64,000 nt of DNA from Octopus vulgaris (taxonomy: Eukaryota). Positions 12,331-54,360 of this stretch are shown in pieces. The stretch is from NCBI GenBank assembly GCA_951406725.2, contig OX597842.1:27466001-27530000 (forward strand), read 5' to 3'. Position numbers and translations under genes: made by a program. Numbering within the stretch: position 1 is the first letter of the stretch; each line of letters begins with the position of its first letter. The notes under the pieces were generated by a model, which was not told where the DNA came from, searched no databases, and saw only the letters and a list, made by a program, of their open reading frames with translations.

Positions 12331-12342
12331 ACTGCCTCCCTG

Positions 12343-13966: not shown

Positions 13967-13968
13967 TT

Positions 13969-24639: not shown

Positions 24640-24702
24640 AAAACAAAAAGGAAAATAAATAAAAACAAAAAGATGGTAGAATTTTGTTTATAAAATTTTA
24701 TT
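24640..24702 (-). terminator. Putative minus-strand polyadenylation site
   Basis: AATAAA (24702-24697), CA about 21 nt downstream (24675-24674), then a U/GU-rich tract (tctttttgtttttatttattttcctttttgttttt). Confidence 0.5.
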
Positions 24703-25282
24703 TTCGCTTCTGTAAATTTCATCATGAAATTCAAATCTGTCCTGATGCTTAGAACTTGTCAGAGACACAGCATTTACATAAAAGTATACGTCATACATAA
24801 AAGAAAAAACAACAAAAAAAAACAATGTACATATAGCAATAAGAGCACACACGGAGAAAAGGGGGCAAACTTAGGGTTTCTAGTATAGGGGGGGGGGAGG
24901 GGGCTGTTACACAGACACGTACACACATGCACTGAAACATGTGTGTATAAACTGTGCCCAACACAAGAGCTTGTTAAAAACTTGCAATACAAAATTGTGC
25001 GTGCGCGTGTGTATATATACACACACATAAATACATATACGTATTTACTCATACATACATATATATATATCATCATCATCATCGTTTAACGTCCGTTTTC
25101 CGCGCTAGCACGGGTTGGACGGTTTCGACCAGGGTCTGGGGAGCTCGGGACTGCCCCAGGCTCCAGTCTAGTCTGGCAGTGTTTCTACAGCTGGATGCCC
25201 TTCCTAACGCCAACCACTCCGCAAGTGTAGTGGGTGTTTTTTACGTGCCACCTGCACAGGTGCCAGAGGGGTCTGGCATCGG

Positions 25283-25324
<42 letters not shown>

Positions 25325-25966
25325 GGGAGTATATCCAAACTTATTACTTATTATATTATATTTAACTTTTGGTTAGTTAAAAAAAAAGGTTAAAAGTTTA
25401 AGAATTTAAAAATTTTAAATATAAATTAAAAATTTTTTAATTTTAAATTTTATATATATATATATTGTATATTATATTAATTATATTTATTTTTTGTTTT
25501 TTATGTTTTGGTTTATGTCTATCACTGTTTGAGTTGCCTAATAGTGGCTTTATCTCTAATTTATATATATATATATATTAATAAATGAAATAAAACATAT
25601 GCATATATATAAACATATATGTACGTACCTACCTCTACATGTACATATATACACGCATATATGAGTACAGGACACCAAAGGGACGTCGAACACAAAGAGA
25701 AACGGAAACATAGACACAAACCAAAGGAACTGGACATTTATTTAAAAACAGCAAATATATATATAAGGGGATGAAAACAATTTTATTCAAATTTCTTGGT
25801 ACTTCAAGTTTCAAAACATGACGCTAATCTTAGAAATTTCCAAGGGCTAACAATTAGCATCAAGCTTTGAAACTCGAAGTACAAAGGAAACTAAATGAAA
25901 CAAATTTGATCCACACATGTAACTCCCAATGAATGATTTGAGTGCCCTTCTTTTGTTTCTCCACTC

Positions 25967-25997
<31 letters not shown>

Positions 25998-26009
25998 ATA
26001 TATAAGGAA

Positions 26010-26455: not shown

Positions 26456-26546
26456 TGTGAAAAACAGAGTTGGAATTCCTTTGAGTAGTATATTCTTCTA
26501 TACACAATCATACATACCCCTTTGTATGTGTGTGTGTGTGTGTGTA

Positions 26547-26605
<59 letters not shown>

Positions 26606-26608
<3 letters not shown>

Positions 26609-26860
26609 CGTGACTGACCAGGCTATCAGATGTTGGTACACACCGCTGGTCACAGTGCGCTTCGCATTGTTTTCGCCTTCAAATGACAGGTTTATCACAA
26701 AATCGACATTCAAGAGAAAACATCCAGCTCAAGTTATGGCTTCGGGTGTTGTGGCTTCGGATGGAAAGAAAATTCCTATAAAATTCTACAAAGCTGATGA
26801 AAAGATCAATGTTAATACTTACTAAAAGACTCAGAGAAACCAGGTATTGACATGGCTTAA
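26606..26860 (+). mobile_element. Tc1/mariner terminus fused to an internal transposase fragment; fragment repeated at about 26972, 28680, 32940, 33785 and 34100
   Basis: Starts after a TA tract (caccgtgactgaccaggctatc); KHPAQVMASGVVASDGKKIP..FYKADEKINVNTY resembles the K-P-VMVWG region of maT/DD37D-type transposases. Confidence 0.72.
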
Positions 26861-27592
26861 TTTTATCCAAAATCCTCCAAAAATGCTCTCCGTATTGGTT
26901 GGCAAATATTTTGCAATAATAACATCCAAGAGATCAAAGGTGACATTGAAGATGTCAGAAACGGAATAAAAACACATCGCATTGTTTTAGCTTTCAAATG
27001 ACAGATTTATCACAAAATCGACATTCAAAACAAAACATCCAGCTCAAGTTATGGCTTCGGGTGTTGTGGCTTCCGATGGAAAGAAAATGCCTATAAAATT
27101 CTACAAAGCTGATGAAAAGATCAATGTTAATACTTACTAAAAGACTCAGAGATACCAGGTATTGACATGACTTAATTTTATCCCAAATCCTCCAAAGATG
27201 CTCTTTGTATTGGCTGGCAAATATTTTACTCTAATGACATCCAAGAAATCAAACGTGACATTGAAGATGTTACAAATGGAATAAAAACACATCCAGAAGC
27301 AATAACATTTTCTGCTTTAGAGTGACGCAAAATGTGACCTTGTTGCAGGTCAAAGAAATGATGCCACGAAACATTAAACAAAGGAACTCAAACAATCCAA
27401 GCGGTTTGTGTTTAAGTGTGATTCATTATATAAGCTCTTTGTCGGATCATTTTAGCTTCCTTCTACTTCTAATGCTTTGCTAAAAGCAAAAGAGAAGTGA
27501 AATATAGACAAGCAACAACCGGCGAGTGCAGTTCTGTTGTTTATCATTTACGAATTATTCACTTCTGCAGCTGGATAAGATAAGGAGAACTG

Positions 27593-27760
27593 CGGATCCA
27601 TGAAATAAGCTGCCAGATGAGATAGTGAAGATGCCGACGACCGCTCGGTTCAAAGTCTCCCTTGACCAGAAATGGCCTGAACTCTTTGTATGACCACCCT
27701 CCCTGTCCCACTACATGGCCTTGCTTTTGCTTTCTGAACCAATAAAAATTGAATTGAATC
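27593..27760 (+). mobile_element. CR1/L2 LINE 3'-end fragment
   Basis: ADP*NKLPDEIVKMPTTARFKVSLDQKW resembles the WNxLP...FKxxLD C-terminus. Confidence 0.6.
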
Positions 27761-28308
27761 AAAGCAATCTAAAGATGCCCAGTGAAATATAGACAAGCAA
27801 CAACCGGCGAGTGTGGTTCTAGTGTTTATCATTTATGAATTATGCAGGTTTGATAAGATTAGGAAGAAAATGGAGGAAGAGAACTTTAATTATGTTAAAG
27901 AATTTCTCCAAAAATATCCAAATAAAATAAGTTGTTCTTTGTATTTGCTGCTAAATATTTAACAATACTACCTTAAACTTCAGAAATGCTATTAAAAGCA
28001 GGAGCTGAACAATTCTGTCCTGGTGCGGACATAAAGTCGCTTTGGACAATACGAAAGGAACGCATCTTCTTAGACCCACGTTCAGTACTTCTTGACTGAT
28101 CCTTCATTTTTGGCAGAGTAGCTATATTCTTGGGGCCAATGTCCAACATACAATGCTTCCACGAATTTCATACTGGCCCATATATGAACACAAAAAATGT
28201 GTTGTAGTGTCCCCAATGTATTGTAGTGTCCTCTCTGTCTAAACTCGTATGGTGAATAAAAAATAGTGCAGTTGAAACCAATGAACATGACCGTTACCAA
28301 AACCATAT

Positions 28309-28349
28309 GAACCTGAAGATTGCATAAATGCAAGAAAGTATACTAGTCC
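28309..28349 (+). ncRNA. Minimal hammerhead ribozyme motif (duplicate of 26311-26351)
   Basis: Identical core, stem II and palindromic stem III. Confidence 0.62.
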
Positions 28350-30573
28350 AATAAGAATGGACAATTAATATTTCATTTGTTCGTTAAGAATAGACAATTA
28401 ATATTGCGTTTCATACCTTTTTACTGTTTTATTTTATAAGATTATACAGAAAACTTAGGAAGGGGACTAATTATATCAAAAGATTTATCAAAAGAAATCC
28501 AGATAAAGTAAAACCTTCTGGGTGTTGGCTTTTCAAAGTTTTTGAACAACATTGAAAATGTCGCAAATTTTATCCAAAATCCTCCAAAGATGCTCTCTGT
28601 ATTGGTTGGCAAATATTTTGCAATAATAACATCCAAGAGATCAAAGGTGACATTGAAGATGTCAGAAACGGAATAAAAACACATCGCATTGTTTTAGCCT
28701 TCAAATGACAGATTTATCACAAAATCGACATTCAAAACAAAACATCCAGCTCAAGTTATGGCTTCGGGTGTTGTGGCTTCCGATGGAAAGAAAATTCCTA
28801 TAAAATTCTACAAAGCTGATGAAAAGATCAATGTTAATACTTACTAAAAGACTCAGAGAAACCAGGTATTGACATGGCTTAATTTTATCCAAAATCCTCC
28901 AAAAATGCTCTCTGTATTGGTTGGCAAATATTTTGCTCTAATAAAATCATAGAAATCAAACGTGACATTGAAGATGTAACAAATGGAATAAAAACACATC
29001 CAGAAGCAATAAGTGGTTCTGCTTTGAAGTGTTGCAAAATGTGACCATGACACAGGTTCAGGAAATGATGCCACTACACTTTATACAAGACAATTGTGTC
29101 CCCAAAGTCCATCCCCTCCTCACCGTGGTGGGGACGCTGGCAACGGGTAGTGTCAGAGCTCTGCCGTCGGGAACTTCGGTTCCTGGTAGAGCCACCAAAG
29201 GCAGATTGGTCTGACACCGAGTGGTATTAGGGCCACAACCCTGCAGATGGGGCTCTAGTGAAAATCAAAGTGGTTCTGTTTTAAGTACGACCCGTTATAT
29301 AAGTTCTTCGTCTGATCATTTTAGCTTCTTTCTATTTCTAGCATCTTTCGTTGACAAGAAATGGAGTTTGATAAGATTGTGAAAGATGCTTAGGAGAAAT
29401 GAAACGAAACCATCAAACCCTTTGCAAAAAGAAAATGAGAAGTGAAATATAGACAAGCAACAACCGGCGAGTGTGATTTTATTGTTTCTCATTTAAGAAT
29501 TATTCACTTCTGCAGTTGGATAAGATAATGAGAATTGAGGAGGGAGAATTTAATTATCTATCTCTTTTCATTTTCTATAATTGCTAAGTTTATCAAAATG
29601 CACTTAAATTACACACATGTGCCACTATTGGTGCGTGGAAAGTGTCCGGTATGAAACCATTCTGTGGCACAAAAAAAAGGTTAGTGATCACTGCATTAGA
29701 CAAAACTCAGGTTTCCAGTATAAATGCCATTTTAAGTGAGATTTTAAAAACCATCACCTTCTTTGTATTATTGTTTACCTCTTTTTATAAGGGTTTTCTT
29801 CAAAATCCTATCACTATCAGCTCTTAGCATGTTCCACTCAAAAGATGGAACAGTGAAATATAGACAAGCAACAACCGGCGAGTGTGGTTCTAGTGTTTAT
29901 CATTTATGAATTATGCAGGTTTGATAAGATTAGGAAGAAAATTGAGGAAGAGAACTTTAATTATGTTAAAGAATTTCTCCAAAAATATCCAAATAAAATA
30001 AGTTGTTCTTTGTATTTGCTGCTAAATATTTAACAATACTACCTTAAACTTCAGAAATGCTATTAAAAGCAGGAGCTGAACAATTCTGTCCTGGTGCGGA
30101 CATAAAGTCGCTTTGGACAATACGAAAGGAACGCATCTTCTTAGACCCACGTTCAGTACTTCTTGACTGATCCTTCATTTTTGGCAGAGTTGCCATGTTC
30201 TTGGTGCAAAAAGTCCAACATACAATGCTTCCACGAATTTCATAAAAAGCATTAGAAAGTATCGACTTGTTTAATTAAGCAAGCAACTATATGCACAAGT
30301 CCATTAGGAGTAAAACAAAGAAAAGTCACTGAAGCATTGAAAATATCGCAAAATTTAGCCCAAACCATCCAAATGATAGAAGATGCTGTTTGTATTGTTT
30401 GGCAGATATTTAGCAGAAACGTTAAGGGAAATCAAAGAACGTGACATTGAAGGGGTCACAAATGGAATGAAAACACATCCAGAAGCAATAAGTGGTTCTG
30501 CTTTGGAGTGTTGCAAAATGTGACCATGACACAGGTCCAGGAAATGATGCCACTACACTTTATACAAGACAAT

Positions 30574-31756
30574 TGTGTCCCCAAAGTCCATCCCCTCCTC
30601 ACCGTGGTGGGGACGCTGGCAACGGGTAGTGTCAGAGCTCTGCTGTCCGGAACCTCGATTCCTGGTAGAGCCACCCAAGGCAGATTGGTCTGACACCGAG
30701 TGGTATTAGGGCCACAACCCGGGACGCTAGCAATGGGTAGTGTCAGAACTATGCCGTCGGGAACTTCGGTTCATGGTAGGGCCACCCAAGGCGGATTGGT
30801 CTGACACCGAGTGGTATTAGGGCCACAACCCAGGACGCTAGCAATGGGTAGTATAAGAGCTATGCCGTCGGGAACTTCGGTTCCTGGTAGGGCCACCCAA
30901 GGCAGATTGGTCTGACACCGAGTGGTATTAGGGCCACAACCCGGGACGCTAGCAATGGGTAGTGTCAAAACTATGCCATCGGGAACTTCGGTTCATGGTA
31001 GGGCCACCCAAGGCAGATTGGTCTGACACCGAGTGGTATTAGGGCCACAACCCAGGACGCTAGCAATGGGTAGTGTAAGAGCTATGCCGTCGGGAACTTC
31101 GGTTCCTGGTAGGGCCACCCAAGGCAGATTGGTCTGACACCGAGTGGTATTAGGGCCACAACCCGGGACGCTAGCAATGGGTACTGTCAGAGCTATGCCG
31201 TCGGGAACTTCGGTTCCTGGTAGGGGCCACCCAAAGCAGATTGGTCTGACACCGAGTGGTATTAGGGCCACAACCCGGGACGCTAGCAATGGGTAGTGTC
31301 AGAGCTATGCCGTTGGGAACTTCGGTTCCTGGTAGGGCCACCCAAGGCATTTTGGTTTGACACCAAGTGGTATTAAGGTCACAACCCGGCAGACGGGGCT
31401 CTGGTGAAAATCCTCAGAGTGTCTGCTTCGGCAACCGGTGGCTCCTCGGTCGTTCTGTCCCTGCGTCTGCGGACAATCTGTGGCAAACAGGATGTTCCTA
31501 CATGTGGGATTGTTGGGGACCGCTTGTGAAATCAACATATTCCCACAAAACTTCTTCCGGAGGACCTCTCCATGCTCACGGGATCGCAGGTGGTCAGCGT
31601 GCGCCGATGGAACCGTGACTGGCTCACTATCTCCAGTGAATTGGCGCAGGACCGTCGTGCGTGGGGTGCCATGGTTCAAGATGCCTCAAGGGTGGTAGAA
31701 GAAGCCGAATCAACCGGCCCCGGATGAATGTCACCACAAGTACAAATACAAGTAAG
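30574..31756 (+). mobile_element. Internally deleted RTE-clade element whose 5' UTR segment is amplified as about 7 x 111-bp tandem repeats
   Basis: 13-bp TSD tatacaagacaat (30561-30573 and 31757-31769); 3' end LAQDRRAWGAMV...*; (caagta)-like tail; unit resembles the Bov-A/BovB-type 5' motif GAGCYATGCCG..GTAGGGCCACCCAAG. Confidence 0.78.
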
Positions 31757-31910
31757 TATACAAGACAATCAAAAGAAAATAAGTTCTATTTGAAGGGTGA
31801 ACGATTTCAGAAGTTTTTTTTGCCAGACTATTTGAGTTTCCCTGTATTTCTAGCAGATTTCGTTGCAAAGAACTACAAGAAGGAAAGACTGATGTTGTGA
31901 AAAATATTTT

Positions 31911-31952
31911 GGTGGACAAGATGTTGTTTTAGAAATTGACGAATCCAAGTTT
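31911..31952 (+). mobile_element. 42-bp Merlin (IS1016/ISXO2-like) transposase motif fragment
   Basis: GGQDVVLEIDESKF. Confidence 0.62.
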
Positions 31953-34900
31953 ATGCATTTGATGCCACAAATCTTTACACGATGAGAAAATTTCTTCGAA
32001 ATAGGCCAAGTAAAAGAAAGTTCTTTCTTGCATTGGCGTCTCAAACTTAAGACAACACAACAAATGGAGATTGATAAACATTATAGATTGGTGCAGTCAA
32101 AAATATTTTAATAGTGTGAAGTGGGGAATGAAATTAAACCATGAAATGCTTTGTAAAGAAAATGAGAAGTGAAATATAGACCAGCAACAACCGGGGAGTG
32201 TGGTTCTATTCTTAATGTACTTGGATAAGATTATAAAGAAAATTAAGCAAGGTGACTTAAAATATGAGAAAATTTCTTCGAAATAGGCCAAGTAAAAGAA
32301 AGTTCTTTCTTGCATTGGTGTCTCAAACTTAAGACAACACAAGAAATGGAGGTTGTTGAAGTTGTTCTGCTTTATGTTGTCACAAAATATGGCCAAGTGA
32401 CAGGTCAAGGAAATGATGCCACAAATCTTTACACAAGACAATCCAAATAAAAAAGGGCTGCTCTATTGTAAGAGTGACCCATTTTAGAAGTTTTTCTTTG
32501 GACAATTTTGGTTTCCTTCTATTTCTAGCATCTTTTCCTCGCAAAGAAACGGAGGTTGATAACATTGCATATTGATGTTGTGAAAAATGTTTTAGGGGTC
32601 ATGGAAGGAAACCATTAAAGGACTTGTGAAACAAAACAGAAGTGAAATATAGGCAAGCAACAAGCGGCAAGTGTGCTTCTATCATTTATGAATTATTTAC
32701 ATCTGTAGTTTAATAAGATTATACAGAAAACTTAGGAAGGGGACTAATTATATCAAAACATTTATCAAAAGAAATCCAGATAAAGTATTGGCTTCTCAAA
32801 GTTGATGAACATTGAAAATGTCGCAAATTTTATCCAAAATCCTCCAAAGATGCTCTCTGTATTGGTTGGCAAATATTTTGCAATAATAACATCAATGAAA
32901 TCAAAGGAGACATTGAAGATGTCAGAAACGGAATAAAAACACATCGCATTGTTTTAGCCTTCAAATGACAGATTTATCACAAAATCGACATTCAAAAGAA
33001 AACATCCAGCTCAAGTTATGGCTTCGGGTGTTGTGGCTTCGGATGGAAAGAAAATGCCTATAAAATTCTACAAAGCTGATGAAAAGATCAATGTTAATAT
33101 TTACTAAAAGACTCAGAGATACCAGGTATTGACATGGCTTAATTTTATCCAAAATCCTCCAAAGATGCTCTTTGTATTGGCTGACAAATATTTTGCTCTA
33201 ATAAAATCAAAGAAATCAAACGTGACATTGAAGATGTAACAAATGGAATAAAAACACATCCAGAAGCACTAAGTGGTTCTGCTTTAGAGTGTCGCAAAAT
33301 GTGACCTTGTTGCAGGTCAAAGAAATGACGCCACGAAACATTAAACAAAGGAACTCAAACAATCCAAGCGGTTTGTGTTTAAGTGTGATTCATTATATAA
33401 GCTCTTTGTCGGACCATTTTAGCTTCTTTCTACTTCTAATGCTCTGCAAAAAGCAAAAGAGAAGTGAAATATAGACAAGCAACAAGCGGCAAGTGTGCTT
33501 TAATTCTATCATTTATGAATCCTTCACTTCTGTAGTTTGATAAGATTATACAGAAAACTTAGGAAGGGGACTAATTATATCAAAAGATTTATCAAAAGAA
33601 ATCCAGATAAAGTAAAACCTTCTGGGTGTTGGCTTTTCAAAGTTTTTGAACAACATTGAAAATGTCGCAAATTTTATCCAAAATCCTCCAAAGATGCTCT
33701 CTGTATTGGTTGGCAAATATTTTGCAATAATAACATCCAAGAGATCAAAGGTGACATTGAAGATGTCAGAAACAGAATAAAAACACATCGCATTGTTTTA
33801 GCCTTCAAATGACAGATTTATCACAAAATCGACATTCAAAACAAAACATCCAGCTCTAGTTATGGCTTCGGGTGTTGTGGCTTCCGATGGAAAGAAAATG
33901 CCTATAAAATTCTACAAAGCTGATGAAAAGATCAATGTTAATACTTACTAAAAGACTCAGAGAAACCAGGTATTGCCATGACTTAATTTTATCTAAAATC
34001 CTCCAAAGATGCTCTCTGTATTGGTTGGCAAATATTTTGCAATAATAACATCCAAGAGATAAAAGGTGACATTGAAGATGTCAGAAACGGAATAAAAACA
34101 CATTGCATTGTTTTAGCTTTCAAATGACAGATTTATCACAAAATCGACATTCAAAACAAAACATCCAGCTCAAGTTATGGCTTCGGGTGTTGTGGCTTCC
34201 GATGGAAAGAAAATTCCTATAAAATTCTACAAAGCTGATGAAAAGATCAATGTTAATACTTACTAAAAGACTCAGAGATACCAGGTATTGCCATGACTTA
34301 ATTTTATCCAAAATCCTCCAAAAATGCTCTCCGTATTGGTTGGCAAATATTTTGCTCTAATAAAATCAATGAAATCAAATGTGACATTGAAGATGTTACA
34401 AATGGAATAAAAACACATCCAGAAGCAATAACATTTTCTGCTTTAGAGTGTCGCAAAATGTGACCTTGTCGCAGGTCAAAGAAATGATGCCACGAAACAT
34501 TAAACAAAGGAACTCAAACAATCCAAGCAGTTTGTGTTTAAGTGTGATTCATTATATAAGCTCTTTGTCGGATCATTTTAGCTTCCTTCTACTTCTAATG
34601 CTTTTGCAAAAAGCAAAAGAGAAGTGAAATATAGACAAGCAGCAAGCGGCAAGTGTGCTTCTATCATTTATGAATCCTTCACTTCTGTAGTTTGATAAGA
34701 TTATACGGAAAACTGAGGAAGGGCACTTTATTCATAACAAAAGATTTATCAAAAACCTGATAGACACAAAATGTTCTCAGTATTGGCTTCTAAACGCCGA
34801 GCAACAGCATCACATTAAGTCAAGATGACATTGAAGATGTTTCAAAATTTATCGATAGACATCTAGATAAATCTATTTGTCTTTATTACCAATGCAAAAC

Positions 34901-34959
34901 GTCTGCTCATTGGTCAACAAACGGATGTTGTATACGCTTTATAAAAAAGCAACTGGAAA

Positions 34960-35520
34960 ACACATCACCACGACGGATTCGGTGGAGGTGCGGGCAGTCA
35001 AGTTTAAGGTTGACCCCCTCCAGAAGTAACCAAAAGGAGGACAGCGGTTTATAGAACACTGTCCATAAGCTGTAAAAAGATTGAGATAGCTTTGGAAGAA
35101 GCTATAGAGAAATGTCTGGAAGAAGTAAGGAGTGTTGCAACATTCTACACTCACTCCATTGTGATGCTGAGGTCGCGAGAATGGGTATGCCTGCCGACCT
35201 ACTGTGGCAGAAGAGTCACGAGAATTAAGATAGGCAGGGTACCACCAGAAATTGAAGAAGTGTGGCTGCTGGCAGCAGTGATGTACAGAACCCACAAAGA
35301 TGTAAAGATATTAAAAGTGGCAAGAACAAAGAAAACGAATTGCTGGGGTTATGGCCTGGAAATGGTCATCCAGGCCACCCAGCAAGACCTGAATGAAATA
35401 GCAGAAGAGGTGTTGCTGCCGGAAGACAGAGTTCATAGTGGTGGTAGAAGGGTGACCTCCGACATGCTACCGCTGTGGAGAAAAGGGGCACATCAAAATA
35501 AAGTGCCCCCGGAAAAACAA
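34960..35520 (+). mobile_element. LINE ORF1 (gag-like, CCHC knuckle) fragment
   Basis: PTYCGRRVTRIKIGRVPPEI..WL; shifted frame VVEG*PPTCYRCGEKGHIKIKCP (35465-35506). Confidence 0.65.
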
Positions 35521-35848
35521 TGAAACCAGCATGAACAAAGTGAGCGTAGCAAAATGAAAAACACAGCGTAGGTGGAGTGTATGGAAGATACAGAAGAGGG
35601 ATTTACAGAAGGGCCCAAAAGAACAAGAAAGGAAATAGATACAGCCCTGAAGAGTCCAAGCATTTACTGCAAAGACAGACAGAAAGGTGATTATACATGT
35701 GCAGCAAATGCTGTAAGTGTGAGTGGCCACCTGCACCCATAGAAGTGACACAAGTTGGTGCTCCAGCAAGAAATTGGAAAAGTCTCATCTGCTTGGAGTA
35801 GCACCCTTTTCCTCCAAACTGGGGATGAGGAAAAGAGGTCAAATAACT

Positions 35849-35905
35849 GACATCACAACGGGGTCTAGCGACTCTGCTCAGATAATGGACTTGGCTGCAA
35901 TTTAT
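35849..35905 (+). mobile_element. 57-bp Penelope RT motif fragment
   Basis: DITTGSSDSAQIMDLAAIY versus DVPMGSSDSAQIADLVGIY of the PLE at about 11277. Confidence 0.68.
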
Positions 35906-36290
35906 AATGTAAGCATATCCATGTTTATGCCTGGAAAATATAGAATCATATAATGAGGAAGATGAAATTACGAATCAAATCAAGAGCTAAAAGCACTTAC
36001 TCTTATTCCTTATAATGGAGGTCCTATCAGGACGTCTCCAGATGGCATCGTTCCTTATGAAGCTCATGAGTGAGAGTTTATCAAACATGTCTCAGAGTCT
36101 CATCAAATAAAACCAGATGAGAGAAGTTAGAAGCTTCTCATTGAAATATGAAGACGAAGAAATTACAAACTAAATCAAGAGCCAAACACTGTTATTCTTA
36201 TTGTTCTTGTAGTCGATAACGGGTCCGTCAGACTCAAAACAAATGACAGATAACGTAAGATATGTTGGCTGCCCATATCATTATATGTCC

Positions 36291-36356
36291 CCCACATTAT
36301 GAATGCATGATCCGACAGTGTGGTTTATACATTCTAGAGACACTGTTTTTGTCTCT
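36291..36356 (+). mobile_element. Gypsy gag N-terminal fragment
   Basis: PTL*MHDPTVWFIH-LETLF versus [19 protein letters not shown] of the element at about 14157. Confidence 0.6.
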
Positions 36357-37128
36357 GCGTACAAAGTTAGGCAGCACCTGCACATCTTATGTATTCACTG
36401 CCCTTCCATAGGATGTCCTGTTGGAGATCCAGGACTTGATTACATCTCTGGATGGCACTGTTCCTTATGGAACTCCCCAAGTGAGAGTTTATCAAGCCTA
36501 ACTCAGAGTCTCATCAAATAAAAGCAGGAGATGAGAGCAGAGGAAGTAGTTTGATGTTTGTCATTAAAATATGAAGAAGAGGAAATCACGAACTAAATCA
36601 GTTGTTCTAATTGTACTGGTAGTTGATAATGGGTCCATCAGACTCAAAACAAATGACAGATAACGTAAGATATACTGGCTGCCCATATGTTTGTCATTGA
36701 AATATGAAGAAGAGGAAATCACGAACCAAGTCAACAGCTAAAAATGCAAAGTGTCATTGTTCTTGTAGCTGATAATGGTTCCATCAGACTCAAATCAAAA
36801 GAGATGACTAAGATAAAACAAGATCAACAGAGGAAATAAAAAATAATCCTCCTATTGTCGCTTCAACGGCCAGGAAGAGCCTCATGGAAAGACAGGAAAC
36901 GGGTGGACCAGAGCAGTATTGAACCCATGGATTCCATGATCGGGTGAGAAAAATGGTTGCACATGCAATTGAAGCGAGGACTATAGTTACTCCAAAGGAC
37001 ACGTGTTGTAAGTTCAATAACAAAATATACCTCCAGGAAGATTGGTGCAGCCATGGGGCCCCAGCCAGCTCGTAATGGCATGGTGGGACGGTGGCCTGAA
37101 AGAAAATATGTCAAGTGAGACATTTTAT

Positions 37129-37957
37129 GAGGGTGTACAGTTATATACTGACGAATGGTCCAGTTATGTTGAACAGTTCCCACACCATAAAAAAATTGGG
37201 TGCCTGCTTCCATGCATCTCACAGAGATACGGAACCCTCAGGACCGATTCTTGGTGGTGGTGATGAGATTTTTTCTTGGGGATGGGGGGGTCACTTGTCT
37301 ATCCAACTGGATGCCTCCTCGGGGCCAGTTCTGCGGCCCACACACTTGTTTGAAGGACACCCTGAAGAGGCTGTAAATAAACAAACTCAACTCGGAGGCC
37401 TTGGTCGGACAAAAGAAGAACTTCAACAGGATGGGGGGGGGGGGGCCACTTGTCTGTCCAACTGGATGCCTCCTCAGGGCCAGTTCTGTGGCCCACACAC
37501 TTGTTTGAAGGACACCCTGAAGGGGCTGTAAATAAACAAACTCAACTCGGAGGCCTTGGTCGGACAAAAGAAGAATTTCAACAGGATGGGGGGGGCCACT
37601 TGTCTGTCCAACTGGATGCCTCCTCGGGGCAAGTTCTGTGGCCCACACACTTGTTTGAAGGACACCCTGAAGGGGCTGTAAATAAACAAACTCAACTCGG
37701 AGGCCTTGGTCGGACAAAAGAAGAATTTCAACAGGATGGGGGGGGGCCACTTGTCTGTCCAACTGGATGCCTCCTCGGGGCCAGTTCTGTGGCCCACACA
37801 TTTGTTTGAAGGACACCCTGAAGGGGCTGTAAATAAACAAACTCAACTCGGAGGCCTTGGTCGGACAAAAGAAGAACTTCAACAGAATGGACTGGCAAAC
37901 CTGGATTGCAGAGGGTTACAACCACACCACCACTGCAACCACCAAGAGTTTTACTTC
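37129..37957 (+). mobile_element. Merlin transposase fragments split by a 4 x ~150-bp tandem repeat (37285-37885)
   Basis: EGVQLYTDEWSSY (37129-37167); EGYNHTT/CNHQEFY (about 37910-37957) corresponding to GYxHxTVNH; repeat unit reads GGHLSVQLDAS and QLGGLGRT. Confidence 0.6.
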
Positions 37958-38597
37958 AGTATGGGACCCAACAGGAAAATGTCTCGTCAGGTACAACAAT
38001 TTTTACTGATAAATGAGCCAGTTACAAAGGGCCTTTCACCAAACTTGGCGCCTACATTCACCAAACAGTGAGTCATGCCAAGAATTTCTTGGTTCCAGAC
38101 AATGAAGCATGCACCAGCCGTATTTAGACCTATTCATCTCATGAAAACATTAATTGATGAAATTAATTATTCACAATGCCGACAGCTCCATAAAGTGCCA
38201 ATCTCTCAAAGTGGAAGATTTAGGATTGAGACTGCCGGTGCCTGGTTGTACTCAAGAAGACCCATACCTCACAGCAGAATTGCTAAGACCAAGTGGTGTA
38301 AAGCATTCATGGAAGTCAGGAGGCAGTGTTTGCAGTGGCGCATAAACAAACCTGTCTGGTCCTACATAAAAGTGCCAGTGTGGTGTCGCATAAAAAGCGC
38401 CCATGCTACCAAGATCCACCAACAAAACTGATCTAGTGTGGACCTACAATCAGATACCCATCTAAGTGGTGTAAAGCATTCATGGAAGTCAGGAGGCAGT
38501 GTTTGCAGTGGCGCATAAACAAACCTGTGTGGTCCTACATAAAAGTGCCAGTGTGGTGTCGCATAAAAAGCGGCCCATGCTACCAAGATCCACCAAC

Positions 38598-38752
38598 AAA
38601 ACTGATCTAGCGTGGACCGACAATCAGATACCCATCTAACCTGCTGATGTTCCAAACACAGCAATTGCCACGCCCTTCAGACTGAGTTTTTGTGGATGCC
38701 CTTCAGCTTCCAGAATGCAGCACAGACATTTCAATGCTTTATAGACACCGTC
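38598..38752 (+). mobile_element. Gypsy RT fragment (first part also duplicated at about 38424-38464)
   Basis: KTDLAWTDNQIPI*PADVPNTAIATPFR-EFLWMPFSFQNAAQTFQCFIDTV versus [53 protein letters not shown]. Confidence 0.8.
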
Positions 38753-38933
38753 AAAAATTGTCTCATTAAATAAATGGTTGTTTTTGCATAATAAGAATTT
38801 TTATAGAACCTAATAATCTAGGACGGTAATAAATGATGCCTGTAAACAAAAATAGCCTTTGTTTCTTTACTACCCTCAAGGGGCTAAACAGAGAGGGGAC
38901 AGACAAGGACAAACGGATTAAATTGATTATATC

Positions 38934-39947: not shown

Positions 39948-40152
39948 AAAGGATGAAAGGCAAAGTCGACCTCGGCAGAATTTGAACTCAGAACATAACG
40001 GCAGACAAAATACAGCTACGCATTTCACCCGGTGTGCTAATGCTTCTGCCAGCTCGACGTCCTATTGTTTCAATTCATACCATTGGTGGATTAGATTTAT
40101 TTTGGTACAATACATGAAGACAGGTATTATCATCCCGCAGTGGAAAATATCT

Positions 40153-41031
40153 GCGTCCCCAAAGTCCATCCCCTCCTCACCGTAGTGGGGATGCTGGCAA
40201 TGGGCAGTGTCAGAGCTATGCTATCGGGGAACTTCGGTTCCTGGTAGGGCCACAACCCGGGATGCTAGCAATGGGTAGTGTCAGAGCTATGCCGTCGGGA
40301 ACTTCGGTTCCTGGTAGGGCCACCCGAGGCGGATTTGTCTGACACCGTGTGGTATTAGGGCCACAACCCGGGACGCTAGCAATGGGCAGTGTCAGAGCTA
40401 TGCTGTCGGGGAACTTCGGTTCCTGGTAGGGCCAGCTATGCTGTCGGGGAACCGGTTCCTGGTAGGGCCACAACCCGGGATGCTAGCAATGGGTAGTGTC
40501 AGAGCTATGCCGTCGGGAACATCGGTTCCTGGTAGGGCCACCCGAAGCGGATTTGTCTGACACCGAGTGGTATTAGGGCCACAACCCAGGACGCTAGCAA
40601 TGGGCAGTGTCAGAGCTATGCCGTCGGGAACTTCGGTTCCTGGTAGGGCCACCCGAGGCGGATTTGTCTGACACCGAGTGGTATTAGGGCCACAACCCGG
40701 GACGCTAGCAATGAGCAGTGTCAGAGCTATGCCGTCGGGAACATCGGTTCCTGGTAGGGCCACCCGAAGCGGATTTGTCTGACACCGAGTCGTATTAGGG
40801 CCACAACCCGGGACGCTAGCAATGGGCAGTGTCAGAGCTATGCCGTCGGGAACATCGGTTCCTGGTAGGGCCACCCGAAGCGGATTTGTCTGACACCGAG
40901 TCGTATTAGGGCCACAACCCGGGACGCTAGCAATGGGTAGTGTAAGAGCTATGCCGTCGGGAACTTCGGTTCCTGGTAGGGCCACCCGAGGTGGATTTGT
41001 CTGACACTGAATGGTATTAGGGCCACAACCC
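40153..41031 (+). repeat. Second array of the 111-bp RTE 5' UTR repeat (about 8 full or partial units)
   Basis: Same start (gcgtccccaaagtccatcccctcctcaccg) and unit as 30574-31390; a single copy also at 29096-29266. Confidence 0.9.
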
Positions 41032-41565
41032 GGCCCTAATTAGATGAATGAGACACATCACGAAAACGACTGCAAATAGATATTCAAGACGACGACACGG
41101 AAAGCAAAGACCCTGCAATAACAGAAATACTTAAAGATATACATCAATGGAAATAGTAGTTGTGATACCGATCGTGGCCGTTTGCCAACCTCGTCTGGCA
41201 CCTGTGCTGGTGGCACGTAAAAAGCACCCACTACACTCTCGGAGTGGTTGGCGTTAGGAAGGGCATCCAGCTGTAGAAACACTGCCAGATCAGACTGGGC
41301 CCCTGGTGCAGCCCTTCTGGCTTCCCAGACCCCAGTTGAACCGTCCAACCCATGCTAGCATGGAAAACGGACCTTAAACGATGATGATGATGATGATGAT
41401 GATACCTACATCATTTGAAGATGATTGTCATGAACTCCATGGTAGTACACAAGTATCCCCTTTTTTATAGCCCCCCCCCCCCCCACATGTAGACTAGATC
41501 CAAATTAAGAAGGACAACACTGCATAAAAGATCAACACAGGAATTTGGCACTGATTATTTTTATG

Positions 41566-43443: not shown

Positions 43444-45310
43444 ACTAGCAGTATCGCCCGGCGTTGCTCGGGTTTGTAAGGGAAATAACTATATAAGCAT
43501 TTTTAGAGAGTTACTTCCCTTATATAAACCGAGCAAAAAATGCATTAAAAATGCGGAAAAATGATGCTAAATTATTTTTTAAATCGTAGACTCATTGTAG
43601 ACGTGCGCTAATATTAGGCTGTTAAGAAAGGAGACAATAATTTTGGAAGGTATGGTGGGGAAAAAAAAAAAAAAAAAAAAAAAAAAAAACAAGAAAAAAA
43701 TGTGGTGAAATTTGAAACCAGACCGTTTAGTTTTACATATGAGACAAGACAGAACTATCTGCTGCTTTCTGGAAGGTCCCATTATCACACAGAAAGACAA
43801 CTATCGGCATTTTGGTCTTTCACATCAGGAACAGCGATTTGGTTGAGGAAATCTTTTAGGGTCAGAAAGAGCAGGTCACCGGCAGTTTCTGAAATGACAA
43901 GAATATAATACAAAATATTGACTTTTCTTTTAATTTGCCACCAGTGTGAAGGACGGACAGTGGGGCCAACAGAAAGTGTTAGGGTTTACATATAATGAAA
44001 TGAGAAAAGAATTATACACAGGCATGACATCTTGAGCAAGTGTCTTCTGCTATAGCCTCGGGCCGACCAATGCCTTGTGAGTGGATTTGGTAGACGGAAA
44101 CTGAAAGAAGCCTGTCGTATATATGTATATGTGTGTGTGTTTGTCCCCCTAGCATTGCTTGACAACTGGTGCTGGTGTGTTTACATCCCCGTCACTTAGC
44201 AGTTCAGCAAAATAGACCGACAGAATAAGTACTTGGCTTACAAAGAATAAGTCCCGGGGTCGATTTGCTCGACTAAAGGCGGTGCTCCAGCATGGCTGCA
44301 GTCAAATGACTGAAACAAGTAAAAGAGTAAAGAGTAAGAGAGAGGCATGACAGTGTGGTAACATGCTTGCTTCCCAACCACATGGTTCCGGGTTCAGTCC
44401 CACTACGTGGCACCTTGGGCAAGTGTCTTCTACTATAGCCTCAGGCCGACCAAAAGCCTTGTTAGTGGATTTGGTAGACGGAAACTGAAAGATGCTCATC
44501 ATATATATACATACTAGCAGCATAGTATGTATGAGCCCCTAGAAGGCAACAACTAATCCCAATCTAGTCCTTTCCCCCTAGGGAACGAAGGTGCATGTGT
44601 AGGTTGCAATGTCTTCTCTTCACTCGAATACTTCTGTGTATACGATGTTCCTAGCTGTCCTTTGGGCGAAAACATGAAAATATCATTGCGCCTCCCAAGA
44701 GAGTTAAAAAGGTCGAGTTGCGTCCCCTAGACAGTCTGTGGTTTGTGTTTAATACACAAATCGGTTTGCTATGTGTGCCACATATGATTTAATTAACCGA
44801 TTTTTTCCAGTAATAAAGTATCCTATTGGAATAAAAAGGGTCATATAGCTCCTTGGAGCAGACATGATGCTCGCTGTGAATTTAAAAAAAAATTCCTGCC
44901 AATTTGTGAAAGATATTGTCGAAAATATGTCATCTTGAATTTGAACGCGATTTCCCAAAATGGCATGATTTTATCGATTTTTTCTGATGGTAAGGTATTG
45001 CATGGAAAACTAACGTCAGAATTAAGTTTCTTAGGGTAACATTAAGCTTCACCATGAGTTTGGTGAAAATCGATTGCAAGTTGCGAAAACTACAACAGAA
45101 AATGTGTTGCATATAATAAGCTTAGATTCTTGACCCCATGTCGAATTTATTATTTTTTTTCAGAACTGGGAGAACTTTTCAAAATTTTCGCTGCGTTAGT
45201 TTTGAATTATGACATTGGGCTATGTGTGTGTCAAGTTTCATCAGAATCAGTTGAAAGCCATAGTCAGAGTGAGGGTACAACCTGACAGACACACAGACAG
45301 ACAAACTGCC

Positions 45311-45320
<10 letters not shown>
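43444..45320 (+). mobile_element. Helitron/Helentron-like non-autonomous element fragments (43444-43610 and 44513-45320)
   Basis: actagcagtatcgcccggcgttgctcggg-type start and (acag)n...tttatatat end typical of DINE/HINE-like elements; family assignment from recall. Confidence 0.4.
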
Positions 45321-45360
<40 letters not shown>

Positions 45361-49312: not shown

Positions 49313-52300
49313 AAAGCAATACTTTCTTTGTGTGATTTAAAGTCGATTTAGCTGTTATTTCTAGCACATCTCATACCCCAAAGCAGTACTTTGTGATTTA
49401 AAGTCGATTTAGCTGTTATTTCTAGCACATCTCAGACCCCAAAGCAATACTTTGTGTGATTTAAAGTCGATTTAGCTGTTATTTTTAGCACATCTCATAC
49501 CCCAAAGCAATACTTTGTATGATTTAAAGTCGATTTAGCTGTTATTTCTAGCACATCTCATACCCCAAGGCAATACTTTGTATGATTTAAAGTCGATTTA
49601 GCTGTTATTTTTAGCACATCTCATACCCCAAAGCAATACTTTGTGTGATTTAAAGTCAATTTAGCTGTTATTTCTAGCACATCTCATACCCCAAAGCAAT
49701 ACTTTGTATGATTTAAAGTCGATTTAGCTGTTATTTCTAGCACATCTCATACCCCAAAGCAGTACTTTGTGTGATTTAAAGTCGATTTAGCTGTTATTTC
49801 TAGCACATCTCATACCCCAAAGCAGTACTTTGTGTGATTTAAAGTCGATTTAGCTGTTATTTTTAGCACATCTCATACCCCAAAGCAGTACTTTGTGTGA
49901 TTTAAAGTCAATTTAGCTGTTATTTCTAGCACATCTCATACCCCAAAGCAGTACTTTGTGTGATTTAAAGTCGATTTAGCTGTTATTTCTAGCACATCTC
50001 ATACCCCAAAGCAGTACTTTGTGTGATTTAAAGTCGATTTAGCTGTTATTTTTAGCACATCTCATACCCCAAAGCAGTACTTTGTGTGATTTAAAGTCAA
50101 TTTAGCTGTTATTTCTAGCACATCTCATACCCCAAAGCAGTACTTTGTGTGATTTAAAGTCGATTTAGCTGTTATTTCTAGCACATCTCATACCCCAAAG
50201 CAGTACTTTGTGTGATTTAAAGTCAATTTAGCTGTTATTTCTAGCACATCTCATACCCCAAAGCAGTACTTTGTGTGATTTAAAGTCAATTTAGCTGTTA
50301 TTTCTAGCACATCTCATACCCCAAAGCAGTACTTTGTGTGATTTAAAGTCAATTTAGCTGTTATTTCTAGCACATCTCATACCCCAAAGCAGTACTTTGT
50401 GTGATTTAAAGTCGATTTAGCTGTTATTTTTAGCACATCTCATACCCCAAAGCAGTACTTTGTGTGATTTAAAGTCGATTTAGCTGTTATTTCTAGCACA
50501 TCTCATACCCCAAAGCAGTACTTTGTGTGATTTAAAGTCGATTTAGCTGTTATTTTTAGCACATCTCATACCCCAAGGCAGTACTTTGTGTGATTTAAAG
50601 TCAATTTAGCTGTTATTTCTAGCACATCTCATACCCCAAAGCAGTACTTTGTGTGATTTAAAGTCAATTTAGCTGTTATTTCTAGCACATCTCATACCCC
50701 AAAGCAATACTTTGTGTGATTTAAAGTCAATTTAGCTGTTATTTCTAGCACATCTCATACCCCAAAGCAATACTTTGTATGATTTAAAGTCGATTTAGCT
50801 GTTATTTCTAGCACATCTCATACCCCAAAGCAGTACTTTGTGTGATTTAAAGTCGATTTAGCTGTTATTTCTAGCACATCTCATACCCCAAAGCAGTACT
50901 TTGTGTGATTTAAAGTCGATTTAGCTGTTATTTTTAGCACATCTCATACCCCAAAGCAGTACTTTGTGTGATTTAAAGTCAATTTAGCTGTTATTTCTAG
51001 CACATCTCATACCCCAAAGCAGTACTTTGTGTGATTTAAAGTCGATTTAGCTGTTATTTCTAGCACATCTCATACCCCAAAGCAGTACTTTGTGTGATTT
51101 AAAGTCGATTTAGCTGTTATTTTTAGCACATCTCATACCCCAAAGCAGTACTTTGTGTGATTTAAAGTCAATTTAGCTGTTATTTCTAGCACATCTCATA
51201 CCCCAAACCAGTACTTTGTGTGATTTAAAGTCGATTTAGCTGTTATTTCTAGCACATCTCATACCCCAAAGCAGTACTTTGTGTGATTTAAAGTCAATTT
51301 AGCTGTTATTTCTAGCACATCTCATACCCCAAAGCAGTACTTTGTGTGATTTAAAGTCAATTTAGCTGTTATTTCTAGCACATCTCATACCCCAAAGCAG
51401 TACTTTGTGTGATTTAAAGTCAATTTAGCTGTTATTTCTAGCACATCTCATACCCCAAAGCAGTACTTTGTGTGATTTAAAGTCGATTTAGCTGTTATTT
51501 TTAGCACATCTCATACCCCAAAGCAGTACTTTGTGTGATTTAAAGTCGATTTAGCTGTTATTTCTAGGTGTGTATGTATCTATGTATGTGTGTGTGATTT
51601 AAAGTCAATTTAGCTGTTATTTCTAGCACATCTCATACCCCAAAGCAGTACTTTGTGTGATTTAAAGTCAATTTAGCTGTTATTTCTAGCACATCTCATA
51701 CCCCAAAGCAGTACTTTGTGTGATTTAAAGTCAATTTAGCTGTTATTTCTAGCACATCTCATACCCCAAAGCAGTACTTTGTGTGATTTAAAGTCAATTT
51801 AGCTGTTATTTCTAGCACATCTCATACCCCAAAGCAGTACTTTGTGTGATTTAAAGTCAATTTAGCTGTTATTTCTAGCACATCTCATACCCCAAAGCAG
51901 TACTTTGTGTGATTTAAAGTCAATTTAGCTGTTATTTCTAGCACATCTCATACCCCAAAGCAGTACTTTGTGTGATTTAAAGTCAATTTAGCTGTTATTT
52001 CTAGCACATCTCATACCCCAAAGCAGTACTTTGTGTGATTTAAAGTCAATTTAGCTGTTATTTTTAGCACATCTCATACCCCAAAGCAGTACTTTGTGTG
52101 ATTTAAAGTCAATTTAGCTGTTATTTCTAGCACATCTCATACCCCAAAGCAGTACTTTGTGTGATTTAAAGTCAATTTAGCTGTTATTTCTAGCACATCT
52201 CATACCCCAAAGCAGTACTTTGTGTGATTTAAAGTCAATTTAGCTGTTATTTCTAGCACATCTCATACCCCAAAGCAGTACTTTGTGTGATTTAAAGTCA

Positions 52301-54160
52301 ATTTAGCTGTTATTTCTAGCACATCTCATACCCCAAAGCAGTACTTTGTGTGATTTAAAGTCAATTTAGCTGTTATTTCTTAGCACATCTCATACCCCAA
52401 AGCAGTACTTTGTGTGATTTAAAGTCAATTTAGCTGTTATTTCTAGCACATCTCATACCCCAAAGCAGTACTTTGTGTGATTTAAAGTCAATTTAGCTGT
52501 TATTTCTAGCACATCTCATACCCCAAAGCAGTACTTTGTGTGATTTAAAGTCAATTTAGCTGTTATTTCTAGCACATCTCATACCCCAAAGCAGTACTTT
52601 GTGTGATTTAAAGTCAATTTAGCTGTTATTTCTAGCACATCTCATACCCCAAAGCAGTACTTTGTGTGATTTAAAGTCAATTTAGCTGTTATTTCTAGCA
52701 CATCTCATACCCCAAAGCAGTACTTTGTGTGATTTAAAGTCAATTTAGCTGTTATTTCTAGCACATCTCATACCCCAAAGCAGTACTTTGTGTGATTTAA
52801 AGTCAATTTAGCTGTTATTTCTAGCACATCTCATACCCCAAAGCAGTACTTTGTGTGATTTAAAGTCAATTTAGCTGTTATTTTTAGCACATCTCATACC
52901 CCAAAGCAGTACTTTGTGTGATTTAAAGTCAATTTAGCTGTTATTTCTAGCACATCTCATACCCCAAAGCAGTACTTTGTGTGATTTAAAGTCAATTTAG
53001 CTGTTATTTCTAGCACATCTCATACCCCAAAGCAGTACTTTGTGTGATTTAAAGTCAATTTAGCTGTTATTTCTAGCACATCTCATACCCCAAAGCAGTA
53101 CTTTGTGTGATTTAAAGTCGATTTAGCTGTTATTTCTAGCACATCTCATACCCCAAAGCAATACTTTGTGTGATTTAAAGTCAATTTAGCTGTTATTTTT
53201 AGCACATCTCATACCCCAAAGCAGTACTTTGTGTGATTTAAAGTCGATTTAGCTGTTATTTCTAGCACATCTCATACCCCAAAGCAGTACTTTGTGTGAT
53301 TTAAAGTCAATTTAGCTGTTATTTCTAGCACATCTCATACCCCAAAGCAGTACTTTGTGTGATTTAAAGTCAATTTAGCTGTTATTTTTAGCACATCTCA
53401 TACCCCAAAGCAGTACTTTGTGTGATTTAAAGTCGATTTAGCTGTTATTTCTAGCACATCTCATACCCCAAAGCAGTACTTTGTGTGATTTAAAGTCGAT
53501 TTAGCTGTTATTTCTAGCACATCTCATACCCCAAGGCAATACTTTGTATGATTTAAAGTCGATTTAGCTGTTATTTTTAGCACATCTCATACCCCAAAGC
53601 AGTACTTTGTGTGATTTAAAGTCGATTTAGCTGTTATTTTTAGCACATCTCATACCCCAAAGCAATACTTTGTATGATTTAAAGTCGATTTAGCTGTTAT
53701 TTTTAGCACATCTCATACCCCAAAGCGATACTTTGTATGATTTAAAGTCGATTTAGCTGTTATTTTTAGCACATCTCATACCCCAAAGCGATACTTTGTA
53801 TGATTTAAAGTCGATTTAGCTGTTATTTCTAGCACATCTCATACCCCAAAGCAATACTTTGTATGATTTAAAGTCGATTTAGCTGTTATTTCTAGCACAT
53901 CTCATACCCCAAAGCGATACTTTGTATGATTTAAAGTCAATTTAGCTGTTATTTCTAGCACATCTCATACCCCAAAGCGATACTTTGTATGATTTAAAGT
54001 CGATTTAGCTGTTATTTCTAGCACATCTCATACCCCAAAGCAATACTTTGTATGATTTAAAGTCGATTTAGCTGTTATTTTTAGCACATCTCATACCCCA
54101 AAGCAATACTTTGTATGATTTAAAGTCGATTTGGCTGTTATTTCTAGCACATCTCATACT
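49312..54160. repeat. 63-bp tandem satellite, about 77 copies
   Basis: aaagcagtactttgtgtgatttaaagtc(a/g)atttagctgttattt(c/t)tagcacatctcatacccc; one short interruption at about 51568-51590. Confidence 0.97.
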
Positions 54161-54214
54161 GCTTTAATGTTTTTTTTGTGTTTTTTATAATGAACAATAA
54201 AGGCCAAAGGGTTT

Positions 54215-54360
54215 ACTTACCTTTAGAGGTGCAGACGTTTTTCGGCGGGTTTCAAATTGTCCAACGTCTCAACAACGGAAAAAACTGGGAGAATGATTAA
54301 AGAGCGAATTAGGGGACGTAAATAAGGGAGAACGAACTCGAGTGAGTGTGAGTGAGGCTA
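54215..54360 (-). promoter_or_regulatory. Putative non-coding first exon with a consensus splice donor, in a CpG-richer unique segment
   Basis: Minus strand ...cacctctaaag|GTAAGT; tcactcacactcactc initiator-like stretch about 120 nt upstream; no ATG. Confidence 0.45.

What the first reader, a model, noticed from the sequence alone, without database searches (positions are those of the whole stretch)
24674..54350. Coherent minus-strand exon-intron skeleton of a ~30-kb non-coding transcript whose ~14-kb last exon is the TE mosaic
Seen on the minus strand: donor AAG|GTAAGT at 54221 after an ATG-less CpG-richer segment; acceptor ttcttgtcatttcag| at 43888 (donor unclear); exon 41519-41406 (ttgatcttttatgcag| ... 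TAG|gtat); exon 41112-40081 (tttctgttattgcag| ... ATG|gtatga) containing the RTE array in antisense; acceptor tttttgtttacag| at 38839, at the right edge of the mosaic; and AATAAA-21nt-CA-U/GU-rich at 24702-24640. The satellites, MITE arrays and most SINEs would be intronic. No long ORF. Inference: a Pol II, spliced, polyadenylated precursor converging tail-to-tail with the Ig-like gene.
Basis: inference. Interest (0 to 1): 0.75.

Follow-up and report, generated by a model that had tools for sequence, protein, structure and literature searches.

The report
Dead HAUS7 copy turned transposon archive
A broken copy of an octopus cell-division gene (HAUS7) has kept its first and last splice signals, lost its protein-coding middle, and is followed by 12 kb of jumping-gene scraps whose recognisable pieces all face backwards, so it likely makes a long RNA that would be cut into small silencing RNAs (piRNAs) against transposons.

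Summary
All motifs are at the stated places, but they are not equal. Donor 54221 and acceptor 43888 are the first-exon donor and last-exon acceptor of a decayed duplicate of HAUS7 (parent 8.3 Mb away on the same contig); exons 2-9 are gone and the ATG is lost. A spliced cDNA fragment elsewhere in the genome, closest to this copy, shows the 43888 acceptor was once used in this lineage. The sites at 41519, 41406, 41112, 40081 and 38839 score no better than background, no joint was seen, and one contig reads through 38839. The 26.6-38.9 kb mosaic is unusual (no SINE, no simple repeat; 0 of 45 control tiles alike), is covered by contigs of three runs guessed to be RNA, and its TE-protein hits are 8 of 8 antisense. 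The parent HAUS7 and a second duplicate carry their own antisense mosaics, the parent's with parvovirus-like pieces. Best reading: a uni-strand piRNA-cluster-like precursor born by duplicating a read-through host gene. piRNAs, strand and 3' end are untested. The scan noted similar archives elsewhere in this genome, without HAUS7.

The parts
54221..54350 (-). Decayed HAUS7 exon 1 with intact donor AAG|GTAAGT; ATG replaced by ACG; probable promoter-proximal exon
   Evidence: score 100.5 vs max 47 of 137 donor-anchored controls, max 64 of 2000 shuffles; exon encodes the N-terminus of P0005/P0008; 79 of 130 identical; donor 8 of 9; single copy
55451..55863 (-). CT-rich repeats resembling the sequence upstream of HAUS7 exon 1 (low complexity, weak)
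   Evidence: 70-75% identity, same orientation
49326..54159 (.). 63-bp satellite, 76.8 copies, inside the inferred first intron
43610..43917 (-). Copy of HAUS7 last exon (exon 10) with acceptor at 43888, 34 decayed codons, TGA-TAA and start of the 3' UTR; no clear donor after it
   Evidence: 70.6% aa; 80.6% nt to parent; acceptor 16 of 16 identical
41406..41519 (-).
40081..41112 (-).
38871..40080 (.). SINE-derived 64-bp array with 15 minus-strand AATAAA; either spliced out or a site of early polyadenylation
38756..38870 (.). Fragment of a ~1.57-kb element with terminal inverted repeats; holds the 38839 AG (CAG here, not CAG in the 9 other copies aligned)
26610..38870 (-). TE mosaic: SINE-free, simple-repeat-free, T-rich on minus, internally duplicated; candidate piRNA-source body
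38586..38767 (+). Gypsy reverse-transcriptase fragment (antisense to the inferred RNA)
36824..37182 (+). Penelope-like RT fragment (antisense); a second weak one at 35807-35905
35014..35550 (+). LINE ORF1-like fragment with zinc knuckle (antisense)
   Evidence: (zf-CCHC E 1.1e-5)
26664..34299 (+). Six Tc1/mariner transposase fragments inside duplicated 315-bp modules (antisense)
30574..31760 (+). 111-bp array plus RTE-like 3' end (family and strand from a recalled C-terminal motif)
   Evidence: (printed frame)
24640..24702 (-). AATAAA, CA at +21, U-rich tract; single-copy; candidate 3' end, untested

Best explanation
The locus is a decayed genomic duplicate of the HAUS7 gene that keeps the first-exon donor and last-exon acceptor, has lost the coding exons between them, and likely transcribes the antisense transposon mosaic behind it as one long minus-strand RNA that would be processed into piRNAs. 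Shown: HAUS7 origin of exon 1 and the 43888 exon; loss of exons 2-9 and of the ATG; past use of the 43888 acceptor in this lineage (spliced retro-inserted fragment); antisense orientation and odd make-up of the mosaic; like mosaics behind the parent gene and a sister duplicate. Inferred: Pol II starts at the inherited HAUS7 promoter, splices 54221 to 43888, passes the lost or bypassed HAUS7 poly(A) region, and ends near 24.7 kb; the parent was already a read-through (piC-DoG-like) piRNA host, duplication copied that property, and the daughter, freed from coding, collected its own TE fragments. Untested: piRNA output and silencing.
For: Parent identity: P0001 matches human HAUS7 (E 6.4e-13), Pfam PF06694, named HAUS7 in one source. 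Exon 10 copy. Exon 1 copy. No other HAUS7 exon in the window or in 326 kb of neighbouring/control DNA. G000:C1:22896733-22896881 joins the end of exon 8 directly to the start of exon 10 and is 89.8% identical to the window copy against 81.6-84.2% to the others, with 7 columns shared only with the window copy versus 2, 0, 0. Acceptor 16 of 16 identical against 81% in the exon (P about 0.04, post hoc). Mosaic: 0 SINE/MITE cover, 0 simple repeats, AT skew 0.118, 4 minus-strand AATAAA; 0 of 45 control tiles equal it on any measure. TE-protein hits antisense to the HAUS7 direction: window 8 of 8 (5 independent fragments), sister at C29:29.34 Mb 3 of 3, parent downstream 8 of 8; controls 26 plus, 22 minus. 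Two-strand Pfam scan of the parent's mosaic: 9 of 49 antisense ORFs hit (Parvo_NS1, ISXO2, Tc1 domains; one weak), 0 of 51 sense ORFs. Contigs of three runs from three studies, guessed to be RNA and only 57-104 million letters in all, tile single-copy parts of the mosaic (X1: eight pieces of 387-1622 nt, 0-3 other letters).
Against: No small-RNA data. No splice joint of the model was seen (15 of 559 joints shown, all at repeats), and X10 record 15 runs unspliced across 38839 with 51 letters beyond. Contigs give no strand; the runs' RNA nature is a guess and no silent control stretch was laid. HAUS7's own introns also show 4 of 4 antisense hits, so orientation alone is not specific to piRNA clusters. 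The low AATAAA count is what the base composition predicts (4 seen, 4.7 expected). Pfam found no TE family in 83 mosaic frames. Modules shared with the sister locus give a sub-threshold Pox_VLTF3 hit on the sense strand; if real, not all cargo is antisense. The two C45 duplicates have no such mosaic. The retro-fragment records an exon 8-10 junction of an ancestor, not today's isoform.
Confidence: 0.6

Rival explanations
1. A transcribed HAUS7 pseudogene with a long 3' tail and no piRNA role: antisense TE bias comes from ordinary selection against sense-strand poly(A) and splice signals, and the mosaic grew by local duplication.
For: HAUS7 introns 4 of 4 antisense; many mosaic pieces are local duplicates; no small-RNA evidence; C45 duplicates lack a mosaic.
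Against: Total absence of SINEs and simple repeats over 12 kb (0 of 45 tiles); short fragments of many unrelated families plus viral-like pieces in the parent's mosaic; three loci with the same layout.
Confidence: 0.22
2. The reader's exact exon chain (54221, 43888, 41519-41406, 41112-40081, 38839) is the main isoform, with a 14-kb last exon.
For: Motifs present; 40080-38840 holds 15 AATAAA that splicing would remove; the 38839 AG is CAG here but not in 9 other copies of the element; cover at 41471 in X1 and X10.
Against: Inner sites rank 28-277 among background sites; no homology support; X10 bridges 38839 unspliced; no donor found after 43888.
Confidence: 0.2
3. The mosaic is transcribed from the plus strand as read-through or long 3' UTR of the neighbouring membrane-protein gene, or from both strands.
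For: That gene ends about 2-4 kb from the mosaic; contigs give no strand.
Against: 27 plus-strand AATAAA in the mosaic against 4 on minus; parent and sister mosaics follow the HAUS7 direction regardless of neighbours.
Confidence: 0.07
4. The locus is now silent; the covering runs hold it as DNA.
For: The runs are only guessed to be RNA and no silent stretch was laid; exon 1 is separated from upstream HAUS7-like sequence by later insertions.
Against: Runs of 57-104 million letters tile kilobases of a single-copy region of a 2,800-million-base genome in three studies; splice sites better kept than their exons.
Confidence: 0.08

Closest known systems
piC-DoGs, piRNA clusters downstream of genes (mouse, human, hamster; PMC11615739, passages read)
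   Same: Host-gene promoter and splice pattern, dense antisense TE fragments behind the last exon, new distal poly(A) site. The parent HAUS7 locus fits this layout best.
   Different: piC-DoGs preserve the host coding sequence; the window's copy is a duplicate that lost it. piRNAs not shown here; mollusc, not mammal.
Mosquito core piRNA clusters made by read-through, traps for viral elements (bioRxiv 10.1101/2022.08.22.504762; abstract and outline seen)
   Same: Read-through from an upstream gene; antisense non-retroviral viral fragments (Parvo_NS1-like in the parent's mosaic).
   Different: There the upstream genes are conserved, working genes; duplication into a non-coding daughter is not in the abstract.
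flamenco and flam-like uni-strand clusters of Drosophila (PMC10643416, passages read)
   Same: Discrete promoter, spliced 5' exons, single-strand precursor, antisense TE load.
   Different: flam-like bias is driven by Gypsy elements over far larger spans; here 12 kb of short fragments of DNA transposons, LINEs, Penelope-like and one Gypsy piece, with a skeleton traceable to a housekeeping gene.
Uni-strand piRNA clusters of slugs (Arion, PMC11615739; Deroceras, PMC12506671; passages read)
   Same: Mollusc; densely packed TE fragments on one strand, RNA from the other.
   Different: Defined by small-RNA data; their promoters and origin were not in the passages read.
Unprocessed pseudogenes in primate piRNA clusters (PMC6461890, passages read; Assis and Kondrashov 2009 seen only as cited there)
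   Same: Speculates that genes overlapping a cluster are duplicated with it and then decay.
   Different: There the pseudogene is a by-product; here it appears to supply promoter and splice sites, and the daughters carry mostly different cargo from the parent.

Membership tests
Unprocessed HAUS7 pseudogene | Homology to parent exons with flanking intronic splice signals, same order and strand | tested here: met
   Exon 1 and exon 10 with donor and acceptor
Unprocessed HAUS7 pseudogene | Loss of coding capacity | tested here: met
   ATG lost, exons 2-9 absent
Uni-strand piRNA cluster (flam-like, slug type) | Dense TE fragments biased to one strand | tested here: met
   8 of 8 hits, 5 independent; controls 26/22; caveats
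Uni-strand piRNA cluster (flam-like, slug type) | Long precursor transcribed across the TE array | tested here: inconclusive
   Cover by contigs of runs guessed to be RNA; no strand, no continuity
Uni-strand piRNA cluster (flam-like, slug type) | Discrete promoter and spliced 5' exons | tested here: inconclusive
   Inherited exon 1 donor and exon 10 acceptor; fossil spliced fragment; no present-day junction seen
Uni-strand piRNA cluster (flam-like, slug type) | 1U, phased, PIWI-bound 26-32-nt RNAs from one strand | not testable with these tools
   No small-RNA run available
flam-like clusters in the strict sense | Strand bias driven by Gypsy elements | tested here: not met
   1 of 8 hits is Gypsy
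piC-DoG | Lies behind the last exon of a host gene, same strand | tested here: met
   Window, sister and parent
piC-DoG | Host coding sequence preserved | tested here: not met
   Not met for the window copy; met for the parent at C29:19.2 Mb
piC-DoG | Read-through past the host poly(A) site shown by RNA | not testable with these tools

The most novel reading that the evidence does not exclude
Octopus breeds new transposon-silencing loci by duplicating a read-through host gene: HAUS7 carries a piRNA cluster behind its last exon, and its duplicates shed the coding exons, keep promoter and outer splice sites, and become dedicated flamenco-like precursors that each gather their own TE and viral fragments. 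This would be a traceable series from gene to piC-DoG to non-coding cluster within one chromosome.
Probability: 0.45. Interest if true: 0.8.

Novelty: new variant of a known kind. Interest (0 to 1): 0.64.

Why it matters
Where the promoters and gene models of transposon-silencing piRNA clusters come from is stated as little known (PMC11615739, passage read). Here parent, intermediate duplicate (exons 8-10 plus mosaic) and stripped daughter (exons 1 and 10 plus mosaic) sit on one contig, with a fossil spliced cDNA, so the origin of a cluster can be followed and tested with existing kinds of data. It would also give cephalopods a mapped candidate cluster family; nine literature searches listed no paper describing an octopus piRNA cluster at HAUS7.

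Tried and rejected
Contig depth rises towards 26.6 kb in X1, X4 and X10 and is flat in the large run X17, as a minus-strand 3' bias would give, but contig depth cannot rank parts of a gene, so it is not counted. Junction search was swamped by repeats (15 of 559 joints, 24 of about 1424 loose ends shown). AATAAA depletion as independent evidence: rejected, composition explains it. Pfam on mosaic ORFs: no TE family in 83 frames; only zf-CCHC. Pox_VLTF3-like reading of the shared modules: below cut-off, no homologue in two protein searches. Idea that the 43888 exon is a zinc-finger-gene 5' exon: rejected once it proved to be HAUS7 exon 10. Searches for further copies or retro-fragments of exon 1, of 41405-41565 and of the 3' end: single copy each (the search skips common words). 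150-bp array: no copy elsewhere. ISXO2-like pieces at 31.9 and 38.0 kb: recalled motifs only, no Pfam or tblastn hit. Supplement of PMC12479628 searched for HAUS7: 0 hits in the one file held; piRNA locus tables of other papers were not seen and may bear on novelty.

Full report
Setting. The window is G000:C29:27466001-27530000 of a 2.8-Gb genome. Proteins of the parent gene found below match Octopus records.

Observation. With weight matrices built from recalled splice-site frequencies, donor 54221 is the best of 1687 minus-strand GT sites in 24.7-54.4 kb. The acceptors rank 12, 28, 32 and 45 of 1529 and the other donors 120 and 277 of 1687; stronger acceptors lie inside the proposed last exon. 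Score alone therefore supports one site of seven. No ORF exceeds 225 aa.

The skeleton is a HAUS7 duplicate. The 43888 exon has five further matches in the genome; in four the similarity starts at the pyrimidine tract and the acceptor is identical. Following them gave a ten-exon gene at C29:19.165-19.206 Mb whose protein matches human HAUS7 (E 6.4e-13; PF06694). The 43888 exon is its last coding exon (70.6% aa; 80.6% nt). The segment ending at donor 54221 is its first exon: donor-anchored score 100.5 against at most 47 for 137 other donor-like sites and at most 64 for 2000 shuffles; the parent exon encodes the first 16 residues of P0005 and P0008; ATG is ACG in the window. No other HAUS7 exon is found in the window or in the 326 kb of neighbouring and control DNA searched. 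Other duplicates hold exons 8-10 (C29:29.34 Mb; two on C45). The window copy groups with the 29.34-Mb copy (7 shared columns against 0 and 0).

Fossil junction. At C1:22896733-22896881 the end of exon 8 abuts the start of exon 10 without intron, inside what reads as a LINE (family recalled). The exon-10 part is 89.8% identical to the window copy, 81.6-84.2% to the others, and shares 7 columns only with it. I infer that an ancestor of this copy was transcribed, spliced at the 43888 acceptor and reverse-transcribed in the germ line. It does not show today's 54221-43888 junction. The acceptor is 16 of 16 identical to the parent against 81% in the exon (P about 0.04, post hoc) and the donor 8 of 9 against 79 of 130, a weak hint of continued use.

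Inner sites. 41519, 41406, 41112 and 40081 have no homology support. The 38839 AG lies in a fragment (38756-38870) of a multi-copy element with terminal inverted repeats; it is CAG here and not in the nine other copies aligned. Contigs of three runs guessed to be RNA (X1, X4, X10; three studies) and one genome-sized run (X17) were laid on 26650-42650. None of the 15 joints shown (of 559) fits the model; all lie at repeats. X10 record 15 crosses 38839 unspliced by 51 letters. The 14-kb last exon is thus not supported; the terminal exon may begin further upstream. The 40080-38840 segment holds 15 AATAAA, so splicing or early termination there remains plausible for some molecules.

Transcription. 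X1, X4 and X10 hold only 57-104 million letters yet tile single-copy parts of the mosaic, for example 34636-37331 in X1 with 1-3 other letters per contig. This fits transcription, but RNA is a guess, no silent stretch was laid, and contigs give no strand, start or end.

The mosaic. 26610-38839 has no SINE or MITE cover (control median 16%), no simple repeat (median 15), AT skew 0.118 (median 0.031) and 4 minus-strand AATAAA; none of 45 control tiles of equal size reaches any of these (no tile dropped). The AATAAA count follows from composition (4.7 expected). It is built of internal duplications in one orientation. With TE proteins whose strand was checked in part by Pfam, 8 of 8 merged hits are on the plus strand, antisense to the HAUS7 direction: Tc1 (four merged hits, one family), LINE ORF1, two Penelope-like pieces, Gypsy RT. 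Controls gave 26 plus and 22 minus. Against: HAUS7's introns give 4 of 4 antisense; direct Pfam scans of 83 mosaic frames found no TE family; modules shared with the sister locus give a sub-threshold Pox_VLTF3 hit on the sense strand with no homologue.

Parent and sister. The 29.34-Mb copy is followed by a related mosaic (3 of 3 antisense). The intact parent is followed, 10-20 kb past its stop codon, by its own SINE-free, T-rich, internally duplicated mosaic, 8 of 8 antisense; a two-strand Pfam scan hit 9 of 49 antisense ORFs (Parvo_NS1 E 1.4e-13, ISXO2, Tc1 domains, one weak) and 0 of 51 sense ORFs. The cargo of parent and window is largely different. The C45 copies are followed by satellites instead.

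Mechanism. Most likely (0.6): the inherited HAUS7 promoter drives a spliced, non-coding minus-strand RNA through the mosaic, which feeds primary piRNA biogenesis and silences matching elements in trans. Origin: HAUS7 was a read-through host, was duplicated, and the copies lost coding exons and gathered cargo. The homology, loss and layout are shown; promoter activity, strand, splicing today, 3' end and piRNAs are inferred or untested. Octopus has PIWI genes and piRNAs (PMC6128900 passages; PMC12479628 passages and section 22).

Comparison. It works like piC-DoGs and mosquito read-through clusters and looks like slug uni-strand clusters. It fails the strict flam-like test (not Gypsy-driven) and, for the window copy, the piC-DoG test of preserved coding. 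Duplication of clusters with decay of an overlapping gene has been speculated for mammals. Nine searches listed no paper on this locus. The scan's earlier notes report other one-strand archives in this genome, one behind a gene and one with sister loci; none names HAUS7.

Noticed in passing
G000:C29:19145700-19156200 (L082:5700-L083:6200): Antisense mosaic behind the intact HAUS7 gene with Parvo_NS1-like (E 1.4e-13), ISXO2 and Tc1 fragments; a candidate piC-DoG in its own right.
   Followed up: partly
G000:C29:29338900-29352300 (L057-L059): Sister duplicate (exons 8-10, frameshifted) with related mosaic, an assembly gap, then a C2H2 zinc-finger exon on the same strand.
   Followed up: partly
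G000:C1:22896733-22896881 (L078:1451-1599): Spliced HAUS7-derived cDNA fragment inserted in a LINE-like sequence together with a piece of another repeat.
   Followed up: yes
G000:C45 (L088-L097): 95-kb contig with a 26-kb duplicate at 99.5% identity, each with HAUS7 exons 8-10, a SINE in exon 8 and a satellite; may be partly an assembly duplicate.
   Followed up: partly
L058:4236-8380; window modules 27.2-34.4 kb: Repeated module with a sub-threshold Pox_VLTF3 match on the sense strand; dispersed relatives on other contigs; origin unexplained.
   Followed up: partly
G000:C29:27328362-27329393 (L037) and 26424824-26425012: Copies of the window's mosaic module at 96-97% identity, one next to an assembly gap.
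   Followed up: no
window 13382-19246: Full-length Gypsy-like element with near-identical LTRs and gag/pol frames.
   Followed up: no
window 1133-22290; G000:C29:27.40 and 27.44 Mb: Plus-strand membrane-protein gene with a duplicated last exon (20378 and 21912) and nearby paralogues; no Pfam Ig match.
   Followed up: no
window 38291-38463: 174-bp tandem duplicate absent in X10 and X17 contigs: a structural polymorphism in the mosaic.
   Followed up: no
window 10437-12353: 638-aa open frame resembling a Penelope-like RT; no Pfam hit.
   Followed up: no
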